Shown here piece by piece: positions 16,801-19,800 of a DNA stretch of 64,000 bases. The stretch lies in the NCBI RefSeq assembly GCF_055900595.2, contig NZ_CM148325.1; one strand, given 5' to 3'. Within the stretch, counting starts at the first letter, position 1. The number at the start of each line of letters is the position of its first letter. A program made the position numbers.

Positions 16801-19800
16801 TTTTTGTGGAAAACTTTAAATGTATCGGTAGAGAGGTACACATTAAAATAGATGATATTATTATTTTAATTGGGCAGAATAATGTAGGAAAATCAACAAT
16901 CCTTGATGCTTATGAGAAATTTGCTGCTCTTGGAAAAGAAAAGGTCTTAGATATTAGCCATTTTCATAATGAAGATGTTTCAAAGCCAGTGATCATGACA
17001 GGAGTATTTACAGATATTACTGTAGAAGATGAAACGGCAATAGGAAAAAAATGGAAGCACAATGATCCAGTTTATGGTGAGTGTATTAAGTTCAGATGGG
17101 TATGGAATGCACCCGGTGAGTCGGCTAAAAAAGAGGCATTTGATCCAACTAAAGGACAAGGTGAATTTGTAGCTGGTGGCTTGGGCGGGTTTGATAGCAT
17201 AATTAAAAGCCGTATTCCTAAGCCACTTCGAATTAAACCTGATGATTCAGTCCTGAAAACACAGGAGCTTATAATCGAAATATTGAAAAGTAATGTGAAG
17301 GAATACCTCAGTAATGGGCCTGATTCCAAGGCTGATGTGATAGCCAAAATTGAATCCCTAACAAGCGCTCTGGTTGAGTCATCTAAAGCAGAATTTGATC
17401 GATTGCTTGGTCGTATAACAGACAATATAGAATCGATTTTTCCAGGGGTTATTATGGAATTGGTTCCTCAGTCGAAAGATCCTATTGATGAGAAGATTAT
17501 CGCTTCAGCATCCTATTTAAAGGTTCGAAACCCGACTAGTCGTTCAACTATGCTTGAACTCCAAGGAACCGGGCTTAAGCGTTCTTTACTGTGGTCTGCA
17601 TTGTCAGTACTTTCGCAAGAAGGAAAAAGCAAAAAAGGTGATGTTGTCAAGGAGTGTAATATCCTGCTTATAGATGAGCCAGAGGCTTTTTTGCATCCAC
17701 CAACAATCCGTGGCGCACGAGAGGCTTTGTATACATTTGCAGCCAATAATCCTGGTTGGCAGGTAATGGCTACCACGCACTCTCCAGTATTCATCGATTT
17801 GTCGAAAGATCATACGACAATTATTCGGGTTGATAAAGATAGCCAGAACAAATACATCTCAACAAACGATATTGGGTTTGATAAGGATGAGAAAGTCAAT
17901 CTTAAAATTGTTCGAGCATGTAATCCAATGGTAAATGAGTTTTTTTTCTATAATAAAATTGTTCTTGTGGAGGGCCCTACTGAAAAAATTGTACTGAATC
18001 ATCTTCAGGATACTCTGGGGATAGAGATGCATGTAATCGATTGTCTTGGTAAAGGTAATATACCTATGTTTGTTAAAATTCTTAATCAGTTCGATGTTCC
18101 TTATGTTGTTATTCATGATTCTGACTCACCTAAAATCCGTCGTAAAGGAAAATATGTGAACAACGGGATGTGGACTATAAATACTTTGATTAGAAATGAA
18201 GTTGCTAAATCAAAAAAAGGACGTATTTTTACTCAGGTGCCGCACTTTGAAGGCGAATTTTTTGGCGAAACTCTTACCTCTGGTAAGGTATCAAATGTGC
18301 TCGAGGTTCTCCAGAACGTTACGGCTGAAGAATACACTCGCTTAATAAGCGTTTATAGCCGTATTTTAAATGACGCAGAAGAATCATTATTTACTGGGAC
18401 ACTTGAGTCTTTTATGGCTAAAATTAATGCATATACGGCAGATAAAACTGCATTAACAGATCCAGAGTTATGGGGATTATCGGGTTTATAAAATTCTCCA
18501 TAAGGGATTTTAAATCAATGAGTTTATTTTTATGCAGATAGAGTCTTTGAGTGAATTGAAATATTAGTACTGTCGACCTGCTGTTTTTGTAATATGATGG
18601 ATTTGGTAGGGGGATGTAATTTTTGTGATAGTGGTTAATATTAAAATGTTTTAGTGTGGATTTTTAGAGTAAAATGATTTAAGTAGTGTTCATATAAAGC
18701 AAGTTTGTTTTTTTTGGGGGGGTGATATTGATAGTAATGTGTGATATATTTTATTGAAATTATTTGTTGTGTGTTGTGAGAATAACAGAGTGTGATTGAT
18801 AAGTATGACGTAAAGAATGAATTATTGGTTCGCTGTATCAGAACAGGTAGGTTATGTTTTATTGACGTTATTTCTAACGAAACTAATTAACTCTGAGTTG
18901 CTTTTGCGTTATCGTATATTTGATCGTTTTTCGTTATAAGAGAAAAGTTTTAGATATATAATTCTTTGAGTGATGTTGAAGTTGGTTTTATCTGTCAGGA
19001 AGTATTGACTATATATGAACATACTCAACGATGCTGCAACGAAAAGAAAATTACAACTGTCCAGTTAGGCAGGAAACTTAATGGCAGGTATGCAGATATG
19101 ATTGCTGAGTTAAAAGAAACAGTAGAGATGAGGGGGGAGGGGTAATTTCTTTTGAGATGGATATATTGAATTCTTTTAATGATGCGGATGAATATCACGG
19201 ACGTGTTAAACTGGAATTGGATATACCTGCTTCAGATATATTATATTGCCATGATTTTATTGATTCAAAACATGTAAACTCCTGGCTGGTTGAACCACAT
19301 GAGTGGGTGGTTATTAATCGTTCTCTTACTGGGATTGTTACAGTGCCAGTATCAGCAATAAAAATCTCTTATTGAAAAAATTATGTATGTAACTTACTTT
19401 ATATATATAAGGGTAAAAACAGTCCCGGTAATAATTAAATATTATTTAATGTTTATTGCTATGTATTGGAGATATAAGCGGGTTTCTTTTGCATAAAGTA
19501 AAAATAAATGAATGATAATTTTTTAACGGAGAAAGTCCTTACTGGAGAGAATGTTCTGCGTGCAGCAATTGCTCGTATTGAGTGGGTTTTTGAAACATTT
19601 CCATCAGTTTGTCTCTCTTTTTCCGGTGGTAAAGATTCCACCGTGCTTTTCCATCTTTTGGCTGATGTGGCCCGCAGGAAAAAACGTCGTTTCTCTGTAC
19701 TGTTCATTGACTGGGAGGCTCAGTACCAGTGCACCATTGAACATATTCAGAAGATGCGGGAAATGTACCATGATGTGACGGATACCTTTTACTGGGTGGC

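What the first reader, a model, noticed from the sequence alone, without database searches (positions are those of the whole stretch)
18492..19507. ~1-kb AT-rich non-coding stretch between the OLD nuclease and ibrA
An unusually long intergenic region, strongly AT-rich with G/T-rich runs, containing only one doubtful 72-codon ORF. Candidates: an H-NS-silenced regulatory region for ibrAB, an unannotated small RNA, or the decayed remnant of a former gene.
Basis: seen in the sequence. Interest (0 to 1): 0.3.

Follow-up and report, generated by a model that had tools for sequence, protein, structure and literature searches.

The report
Decayed gene remnant upstream of ibrA
Most of the 1-kb "non-coding" gap is the broken remains of a 214-codon gene, a predicted ADP-ribosyltransferase-like protein that is intact at the same position in hundreds of other E. 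coli; the rest is that gene's G/T-rich leader and the short ibrA upstream region, so this is ordinary gene decay in a defence island.

Summary
Window 18492-19507 lies exactly between the OLD nuclease stop and the ibrA start. It has 31% G+C against 48% for the window, and its longest ORF is 72 codons. It is also strikingly C-depleted, with C-free runs of 109 and 85 nt.

This stretch is a pseudogene of a 214-aa protein (WP_001013662-like) that sits intact just upstream of ibrA in roughly 470-495 complete E. coli genomes. The window copy has four frame-breaking deletions of 56, 2, 2 and 1 bp. The same lesions occur in the near-identical strain SC418, where RefSeq already annotates "hypothetical protein, frameshifted". 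The 72-codon ORF is the C-terminal fragment of this gene.

The parent family has no Pfam, NCBIfam, PADLOC or PHROG name. I infer that it is a divergent R-S-E-type, DraT-like ADP-ribosyltransferase fold, found mostly in defence islands and mobile elements.

The remaining 300 nt upstream is a G/T-rich leader. It is partly homologous to the leader of intact alleles and shows no RNA-family or structure signal. The last 132 nt is the conserved ibrA 5' region. In this window ibrA itself is cut by an IS element. Low interest.

The parts
16785..18491 (+). Context: OLD-family ATP-dependent nuclease gene (568 aa), left boundary of the gap.
   Evidence: Pfam AAA_15 and OLD-like TOPRIM; PADLOC Old 1.5e-78. 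Among 5426 E. coli genomes it is found only in SC418. An 87% aa relative occurs in Erwinia psidii.
18492..18506 (+). Last bases that are still homologous to the Erwinia psidii OLD cassette (its 3' flank).
   Evidence: In alignment A5, similarity ends about 15 nt after the stop codon.
18507..18689 (+). Orphan G/T-rich spacer with no detectable homologue other than strain SC418.
   Evidence: blastn 'distant' finds 1 of 5426 E. coli genomes. No match in plasmids or phages. No homology to the Erwinia flank. No ORF of 30 aa or more. No Rfam hit.
18582..18785 (+). Two C-free runs, 18582-18690 (109 nt) and 18701-18785 (85 nt), separated by 10 nt that hold two C residues (at either end).
   Evidence: They are the longest C-free runs in the window, the next being 37 nt. 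26 of 20000 shuffles reach 109 nt.
18690..18791 (+). Diverged copy of the conserved leader/promoter region of the 214-aa gene. It includes a T8G7 homopolymer tract at 18708-18722.
   Evidence: In alignment A4 to four intact alleles, 'TATATAAAGC...GGGG...GTGA.ATA' is conserved, with a 17-nt gap in the window. The leaders of intact alleles are also C-poor (7.7% C, ~30% G, ~40% T). Promoter-like sites lie at 18722-18750 and 18754-18783, but the count is not above the shuffle expectation.
18792..19375 (+). Pseudogene of a 214-aa DraT-like/ADP-ribosyltransferase-fold protein (WP_001013662 family). It is 584 bp against 645 bp when intact. Deletions: 56 bp after 18847, 2 bp after 18931, 2 bp after 18953 and 1 bp after 19138 (in a G run).
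   Evidence: tblastn in three frames. Alignments A1 and A4. Lesion mapping. RefSeq pseudogene H1D11_RS25320 in SC418. Intact orthologues lie at the same position in ATCC 11775 and others.
19157..19375 (+). It is the C-terminal fragment of the pseudogene, corresponding to residues 143-214 of the intact protein.
   Evidence: Its translation is identical to P0001 residues 143-214. It retains S148, E188 and E191 but lacks R114, which lies in another frame.
19376..19507 (+). ibrA 5' region. The last ~90 nt are conserved across E. coli alleles. A possible hairpin at 19441-19516 covers the ibrA start codon.
   Evidence: Alignment A4. Fold z = -2.75. In the consensus fold, 8 pairs carry one-sided changes that keep pairing, none is broken and none is compensatory.
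19508..20440 (+). Context: 5' part of ibrA (PAPS-reductase/DUF3440), truncated by an IS3-family element at 20441-21688.
   Evidence: Pfam PAPS_reduct and DUF3440 on the 344-aa ORF; rve integrase ORFs follow. In the blastn comparison with SC418, a 1248-bp insert replaces 171 bp.

Best explanation
The gap is not a dedicated regulatory or RNA element. It has three parts.

(a) 18492-18791 is a ~300-nt G/T-rich, C-depleted leader. Its 3' third is a diverged version of the leader found upstream of the intact gene in other E. coli.

(b) 18792-19375 is a dead copy of a 214-codon gene. Four independent deletions (56, 2, 2 and 1 bp) put the conserved residues into three different frames.

(c) 19376-19507 is the conserved ibrA 5' region.

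Shown: the homology, the lesions, their presence in an independent assembly, and the intact syntenic orthologues.

Inferred: the parent protein is a divergent R-S-E-type ADP-ribosyltransferase fold distantly related to DraT. It behaves as a stand-alone 'conflict' gene of defence islands, ICEs, plasmids and transposon cargo. In E. coli it sits at the head of the block [ART-like]-ibrA-ibrB-perC-hyp-hyp, next to a degenerate T6SS end.

Also inferred: the window's copy was a diverged but once-functional allele. Its 5' half carries many conservative substitutions and its 3' half is 98-100% identical to common alleles, which implies a recombination junction near 19000. It arrived together with the rare OLD cassette and was then inactivated. 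With ibrA also cut by an IS, the whole block is decaying in this strain. The region therefore most likely does nothing beyond possibly being transcribed.
For: Translated homology: the intact E. coli protein P0001 matches the window in three frames, at E = 2e-54 (residues 127-214, 91% identity), 4e-39 and 5e-11.

Lesions: deletions of 56, 2, 2 and 1 bp relative to four intact alleles.

Not an assembly error: SC418, an independent assembly, is 99.8% identical and differs at only 3 positions in the region. PGAP flags the gene there as 'frameshifted'.

Synteny: an intact 214-aa gene lies directly upstream of ibrA in ATCC 11775, FDAARGOS_448, TCM3e1 and SK6988. The region 18835-19600 matches 495 genomes. 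The protein clusters hold 479 and 894 member sequences.

Family: a profile search finds 205 cluster representatives at 50% identity. E188 is invariant, and R114, S148, E191, W192 and N196 are conserved in at least 90% of 96 sequences.

Contexts of relatives: beside Kiwa after a T6SS end in Serratia; Tn7-like cargo; an ICE transfer region with a SprT-like gene; beside JetD and an MmeI-type methylase; beside ToxN and a resolvase; on plasmids, one of them next to a zincin/ArdC-like gene.

Against: The first ~200 nt of the gap (18507-18689) has no homologue, and its extreme C depletion is not explained by the pseudogene reading.

I could not show whether the region is transcribed or bound by H-NS.
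Confidence: 0.9

Rival explanations
1. The whole AT-rich stretch is an H-NS-silenced regulatory region that controls ibrAB. This could also hold in addition to the pseudogene reading.
For: The gap has 31% G+C against 48% for the window, and the low-G+C block runs from about 16600 to 19600, which is typical of horizontally acquired DNA that H-NS targets (established knowledge). The last ~90 nt before ibrA are conserved in all alleles. A possible hairpin covers the ibrA start codon.
Against: No binding or transcription data are available here. Promoter-like sites are no more frequent than in shuffles: 8 found against 6.6 +/- 2.4 expected. 57% of the stretch is explained as decayed coding sequence. 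In most E. coli the ibrA upstream intergenic region is only ~135-140 nt because the 214-aa gene is intact. In this window ibrA is broken by an IS, so there is nothing functional left to regulate.
Confidence: 0.25
2. The C-free G/T-rich part (18507-18791) is a functional element in its own right. It could be an array of binding sites for a regulator (GTGATA occurs three times) or an unstructured G/U-rich 5' leader that controls translation of the downstream gene.
For: C depletion exceeds what the regional composition predicts (26 of 20000 shuffles). The homologous leaders of intact alleles are also G/T-rich and C-poor (7.7% C). GTGATA is found 3 times against 0.23 expected.
Against: The motif was chosen after looking at the sequence, so its P value is inflated. 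Apart from SC418, 18507-18689 has no homologue anywhere I searched. Leaders of family members outside E. coli are not G/T-rich. No stable or unusual RNA structure is predicted. The gene it would serve is dead. An excess of G and T on the non-template/leading strand is also the expected direction of transcription- and replication-associated C-to-T bias (established knowledge; not tested here).
Confidence: 0.15
3. The region encodes an unannotated small RNA.
For: It is a long stretch without an ORF between two genes. 19376-19520 folds better than shuffles (z = -2.75).
Against: No Rfam family matches in 18492-19507, even at E <= 1. No intrinsic-terminator-like site lies inside the gap; the two found are in the flanking genes. 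18560-18800 folds no better than shuffles on either strand. The structured part overlaps the ibrA start, so it looks like a 5' UTR. It shows no compensatory changes.
Confidence: 0.05
4. The gene is still expressed, either as split polypeptides or by slippage at the G run (phase variation).
For: One lesion is a 1-bp change in a G6AG4/5 run. The first three deletions sum to 60 bp and so restore the original frame. ORFs of 59 and 72 codons remain.
Against: The 56-bp deletion removes residues that are invariant in close relatives (G31, F32, K36). The stretch between the first and third deletions contains stop codons in the reading frame. R114 and the S148/E188/E191 set are on different fragments. 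Correcting the G run alone cannot restore the protein.
Confidence: 0.03

Closest known systems
RefSeq pseudogene H1D11_RS25320 ('hypothetical protein, frameshifted') of E. coli SC418 (NZ_LR778147.1), and its intact orthologue WP_001013662.1 of E. coli ATCC 11775
   Same: It is the same locus. It is 99.8% identical to the window over 18400-19600, with the same lesions and the same neighbours (OLD nuclease upstream, ibrA downstream).
   Different: SC418 has an intact ibrA, whereas the window has an IS in it. PGAP starts the pseudogene at the ATG equivalent to window 18817. Alignment to intact alleles puts the ancestral start at GTG 18792. Neither record names the protein family.
DraT, dinitrogenase reductase ADP-ribosyltransferase (Pfam PF07357, DRAT)
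   Same: DRAT is the only Pfam family hit repeatedly by the parent family (7 of 96 members, best E = 4.4e-7). The one match whose coordinates were seen, in P0040, spans a region corresponding to the predicted catalytic core. The family conserves an Arg, a Ser and a Glu.
   Different: The E. coli protein itself does not hit DRAT, and the one bit score seen (17, for P0040) is below Pfam's cut-off of 25. There is no nif or draG context in any locus examined. The contexts are defence islands and mobile elements.
R-S-E clade bacterial mono-ADP-ribosyltransferase toxins (C3, VIP2/iota, Certhrax, HopU1, SidE mART, T6SS effector Tre1, Listeria Lmo0066)
   Different: Sequence identity is 7-15%, and Foldseek against PDB is not significant. 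The acidic pair is E188-x-x-E191, not E-x-E. The protein has an N-terminal helical domain. No adjacent immunity, ARH or macrodomain gene, and no secretion-adaptor gene, was seen.
Domains inside large phage polyvalent-type proteins (BFVD models)
   Same: Foldseek gives four hits with probability 1.0, E from 7e-5 to 7e-4 and TM ~0.5 to internal domains of 469-1390-aa phage proteins. Relatives sit next to SprT/ArdC-like genes in an ICE and on a plasmid.
   Different: Here the protein is free-standing and chromosomal. No sequence relative was found in IMG/VR. That those phage domains are ARTs is my reading, not an annotation in the hits.

Membership tests
Pseudogene (decayed copy of a protein-coding gene) | Significant translated similarity to an intact protein | tested here: met
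   tblastn of P0001 against the window gives E = 2e-54, 4e-39 and 5e-11 in three frames.
Pseudogene (decayed copy of a protein-coding gene) | Reading frame disrupted by indels or stops relative to intact homologues | tested here: met
   Deletions of 56, 2, 2 and 1 bp after 18847, 18931, 18953 and 19138, with in-frame stops between them.
Pseudogene (decayed copy of a protein-coding gene) | Intact orthologue at the syntenic position in related genomes | tested here: met
   A 214-aa CDS lies directly upstream of ibrA in ATCC 11775, FDAARGOS_448, TCM3e1 and SK6988. 473-495 genomes match.
Pseudogene (decayed copy of a protein-coding gene) | Lesions are not artefacts of one assembly | tested here: met
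   The independent assembly SC418 carries all four lesions and differs at only three other positions. PGAP calls the gene frameshifted.
R-S-E ADP-ribosyltransferase fold (parent protein family) | ART fold | tested here: met
R-S-E ADP-ribosyltransferase fold (parent protein family) | Conserved Arg, Ser(-Thr-Ser) and Glu-x-Glu catalytic motifs in the right order | tested here: inconclusive
   R114, S148 and E191 are conserved in at least 90% of 96 sequences and E188 is invariant, in the expected order and on strands. The spacing is E-x-x-E, however, and I could not inspect a residue-level superposition.
R-S-E ADP-ribosyltransferase fold (parent protein family) | NAD+ binding and ADP-ribosyl transfer | not testable with these tools
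   This needs biochemistry.
DraT family (Pfam PF07357) | Score above Pfam's gathering cut-off (25 bits) | tested here: not met
   The E. coli protein has no hit. P0040 scores 17 bits. 7 of 96 relatives hit at E <= 1, the best at 4.4e-7. The bit score of that best hit was not shown; I estimate about 30 bits from the E-value ratio, so one distant member may pass.
DraT family (Pfam PF07357) | Genomic association with draG or nif genes | tested here: not met
   None was seen in any locus with neighbours examined.
Small regulatory RNA or cis-regulatory RNA | Match to a described RNA family, or a structure better than chance with covariation | tested here: not met
   No Rfam hit in the region. z is about 0 for 18560-18800 on both strands. 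The ibrA 5' hairpin has z = -2.75 but no compensatory pairs.
H-NS-bound silenced region | AT-rich relative to the genome | tested here: met
   31% against 48% G+C.
H-NS-bound silenced region | H-NS occupancy and derepression in an hns mutant | not testable with these tools
   No ChIP or expression data are available. The literature search found nothing on this locus.

The most novel reading that the evidence does not exclude
The intact 214-aa ART-like gene is the first gene of an E. coli-specific module with ibrA (PP-loop/PAPS-reductase-like) and ibrB (ParB/sulfiredoxin-like). In this reading the module uses NAD+ and ATP to modify a nucleic acid or protein in phage defence or counter-defence, and the conserved G/T-rich, C-depleted leader is its control element. 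The window would then show that module caught in the act of being dismantled, with the ART gene frameshifted and ibrA cut by an IS.
Probability: 0.1. Interest if true: 0.55.

Novelty: new member of a known kind. Interest (0 to 1): 0.2.

Why it matters
For the window itself it matters little. The long "intergenic" region is explained, and it should be annotated as a pseudogene plus leader rather than pursued as a regulatory RNA or a special silencer.

The by-product is modestly useful. A protein annotated only as "hypothetical" in over a thousand E. coli sequences, always directly upstream of ibrA, can now be proposed to be a DraT-like ADP-ribosyltransferase fold with a conserved R/S/E set. It belongs to a family of about 200 sequence clusters found in defence islands, ICEs, plasmids and Tn7 cargo. 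That gives a concrete, testable handle (NAD+-dependent modification) on the poorly understood ibrAB island and on one more candidate conflict-system enzyme.

Tried and rejected
- **RNA families:** an Rfam scan of 16000-22000 at E <= 1 found only a sub-threshold S15-leader hit inside the OLD gene.
- **Promoters and terminators:** the scan found nothing above shuffle expectation inside the gap.
- **Repeats:** direct, inverted and tandem repeat searches gave only short, chance-level matches.
- **Protein family libraries:** Pfam, NCBIfam, PADLOC and PHROGs gave no hit for the intact 214-aa protein.
- **Solved structures:** a profile search of PDB sequences found nothing. Foldseek against PDB was not significant. 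The AFDB50 library was unavailable.
- **Homologues of 18492-18800:** none in E. coli genomes beyond SC418, and none in plasmids or phages.
- **OLD cassette test:** I asked whether the spacer travels with the OLD cassette. The Erwinia psidii homologue (87% aa) loses similarity ~15 nt after the stop, so it does not.
- **Intact copy of the window's diverged allele:** a back-translated pattern for the window's diverged allele found nothing in metagenome contigs.
- **Phage relatives:** none found in IMG/VR.
- **Conserved partner gene:** the two 329-aa neighbours, in the Tn7-like metagenomic contig (L003) and in Serratia (L004), are unrelated. No IbrA or IbrB lies beside any non-E. coli relative examined.
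- **Possible paralogue:** the other 214-aa ORF at 22810-23454 is unrelated.
- **Literature:** searches for ibrA/ibrB, DUF3440 and DraT with phage defence found nothing on this gene. The original ibrAB paper is not held.
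Full report
**1. The observation**

The OLD-type ORF ends at 18491 and the ibrA-like ORF begins at 19508. 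The 1016 nt between them have 31.1% G+C against 48.2% for the window. The longest ORF is 19157-19375 at 72 codons.

The G/T-richness is real and more extreme than described. In 18492-18791, C makes up only 4.7% of bases, and GC skew reaches 0.9 in 200-nt windows. Two C-free runs of 109 nt (18582-18690) and 85 nt (18701-18785) are by far the longest in the 64-kb window, where the next is 37 nt. Only 26 of 20000 shuffles of the region itself give a run of 109 nt.

**2. What most of it is**

A megablast of 18400-19600 against 5426 complete E. coli genomes gave one full-length match, strain SC418 at 99.8% identity. It also gave about 495 genomes that match only from 18835 onward, at 80-93% identity.

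In SC418, RefSeq annotates the equivalent of window ~18817-19375 as "hypothetical protein, frameshifted". In E. coli ATCC 11775 the same position, directly upstream of ibrA, holds an intact 645-bp gene encoding WP_001013662.1 of 214 aa.

tblastn of the intact protein against the window recovers it in three frames:
- residues 127-214 at 91% identity, E = 2e-54;
- residues 4-137, with stops and gaps, E = 4e-39;
- residues 32-65, E = 5e-11.

Alignment to four intact alleles shows four lesions unique to the window/SC418 lineage:
- a 56-bp deletion after 18847;
- a 2-bp deletion after 18931;
- a 2-bp deletion after 18953;
- a 1-bp deletion after 19138, in a G run.

The ancestral start aligns to GTG 18792. 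SC418 is an independent assembly, shares all four lesions and differs from the window at only three positions in the region, so these are not assembly errors. The 56-bp deletion removes residues that are invariant among close relatives. The copy is dead.

**3. History of the copy**

Identity to the common allele is 54-92% in 50-nt blocks up to about 19011, and 98-100% from there on. The diverged 5' half still encodes conservative replacements that keep the conserved residues. It was therefore a functional, diverged allele before it was inactivated, and a recombination junction lies inside the gene near 19000 (inference).

The diverged side continues into the OLD nuclease gene, which among E. 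coli occurs only in SC418. Its closest relative found is in Erwinia psidii, at 87% aa identity.

E. coli genomes show three states of this slot, all followed by [214-aa gene]-ibrA-ibrB-perC-hyp-hyp:
- a degenerate T6SS end (ImpA/VasL fragments) followed directly by the 214-aa gene, in about 340 genomes;
- the same with a different OLD-type nuclease in between, in 133 genomes; that nuclease is only 28% identical to the window's;
- the window/SC418 state.

**4. The rest of the gap**

*18690-18791.* This stretch is recognisably homologous to the conserved leader of the intact alleles, although diverged and with a 17-nt gap. Those leaders are also G/T-rich and C-poor, with 7.7% C, ~30% G and ~40% T. 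The composition is therefore a property of this E. coli leader and not an accident of the window. It is not shared by family members outside E. coli.

*18507-18689.* This stretch has no homologue anywhere I could search:
- E. coli at blastn sensitivity;
- plasmids and phages;
- the Erwinia OLD flank, where similarity stops ~15 nt after the stop codon.

It has no ORF of 30 codons or more, no Rfam match, no significant repeats and no predicted RNA structure beyond shuffles on either strand (z = -0.13 and +0.14). GTGATA occurs three times against 0.23 expected, but I picked that motif after looking at the sequence. The direction of the skew, G and T in excess on the strand that is non-template for every gene in this block, is what transcription- and replication-linked C-to-T bias would produce. 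That rests on established knowledge and was not tested here. The extreme C depletion remains only partly explained.

*19376-19507.* This is the ibrA 5' region, and its last ~90 nt are conserved in all alleles. It can form a hairpin at 19441-19516 that covers the ibrA start codon (z = -2.75). The eight pairs with one-sided changes all keep pairing, and there are no compensatory changes.

**5. What the parent gene is (inference)**

The intact protein has no hit in Pfam, NCBIfam, PADLOC or PHROGs. A word-indexed search found only E. coli clusters (479 and 894 members), one Serratia protein (64% identity) and one protein at 34%.

An exhaustive profile search found 205 representatives of 50%-identity clusters, mostly ~300 aa with a C-terminal extension that the E. 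coli form lacks. In a 96-sequence alignment, E188 is invariant, and R114, S148, E191, W192, N196, Q99 and D144 are conserved in at least 90%.

With that alignment AlphaFold2 gives pLDDT 95.3. The model has an N-terminal helical part followed by a beta-rich core. In that core R114 lies on a strand, N147-S148 lie on the strand after next, and E191 opens a strand after a long loop.

The fold evidence is as follows:
- Foldseek against PDB is not significant.
- Foldseek against BFVD gives four hits at E < 1e-3 to internal domains of large phage proteins.
- When all 96 members are scanned against Pfam, the only family hit by more than two is DRAT, the dinitrogenase reductase ADP-ribosyltransferase, with 7 members and a best E of 4.4e-7.

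I therefore read the family as a divergent, un-named DraT-like ART fold. My confidence is about 0.75 for the fold and lower for activity. The caveat is that the acidic pair is E-x-x-E rather than E-x-E.

**6. Contexts**

No partner gene is conserved. Relatives are found in these settings:
- next to Kiwa after a T6SS end in Serratia, the same kind of site as in E. coli;
- in Tn7-like cargo;
- as an isolated insertion between housekeeping genes;
- in an ICE transfer region near a SprT-like gene;
- beside JetD and an MmeI-type methylase;
- beside ToxN and a resolvase;
- on a few plasmids, one of them next to a zincin/ArdC-like gene.

None was found in IMG/VR. This pattern fits a stand-alone enzyme of biological conflict, either defence or counter-defence. 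IbrA and IbrB accompany it only in E. coli.

**7. State of the locus in this window**

Compared with SC418, the window has a 1248-bp IS3-family element at 20441-21688 that replaces 171 bp of ibrA and truncates it to 344 codons. Both the ART-like gene and ibrA are therefore inactivated here. That makes a live "regulatory region for ibrAB" unlikely to matter in this strain.

**8. Verdict**

- **Observation:** confirmed.
- **Interpretation:** partly supported. The "decayed remnant" option is right, the sRNA option is unsupported, and the H-NS option is untestable here.
- **Novelty:** the pseudogene is already flagged in RefSeq for a sister strain, so the finding as posed is ordinary. The un-named parent family is a new member of a known kind, the ART fold.
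- **Interest:** low, 0.2.

Noticed in passing
window 20441-21688: An IS3-family element (orfA 112 aa, orfB 272 aa with rve domains) interrupts ibrA and replaces 171 bp that are present in SC418. ibrA is truncated to 344 of 410 codons.
   Followed up: partly
window 19441-19516: A possible hairpin covers the ibrA start codon (z = -2.75). It is conserved across alleles, with 8 pairs carrying one-sided pairing-compatible changes and no compensatory ones. ibrA has no obvious Shine-Dalgarno sequence.
   Followed up: partly
window 18708-18722: A T8G7 homopolymer tract lies in the leader. Its G-run length differs between the window (G7) and SC418 (G6), one of only three differences in the region, so it may be a hypermutable tract.
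   Followed up: no
window ~18990-19010: Identity to the common E. coli allele jumps from 54-92% to 98-100% inside the pseudogene. This suggests a recombination junction that joins the rare OLD-bearing segment to the common ibrAB block.
   Followed up: partly
window 16785-18491; L002 5259-6707; L011 4001-5707: The slot between the degenerate T6SS end (ImpA/VasL) and the ART-like gene behaves as a hotspot. It is empty in ~340 E. coli genomes. In 133 it holds an OLD nuclease only 28% identical to the window's. In the window and SC418 it holds an OLD whose closest relative (87% aa) is in Erwinia psidii.
   Followed up: partly
window 21689-24045 versus 12001-20440: Identity to SC418 is 98.8% left of the IS but only 94.5% right of it, and the match ends at 24045. 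The window strain is therefore a mosaic relative to SC418.
   Followed up: no
L019 5001-8157; L023 3890-6066: Relatives of the ART-like protein in an ICE and on an Agrobacterium plasmid lie close to SprT/zincin (ArdC-like) genes. This hints at a role during establishment of incoming DNA rather than in host defence.
   Followed up: no
window 22810-23454 and 23520-23843: Two further conserved hypothetical genes (214 and 107 aa) lie downstream of perC with no family hit in any library. The 214-aa one is unrelated to the ART-like protein despite having the same length.
   Followed up: partly
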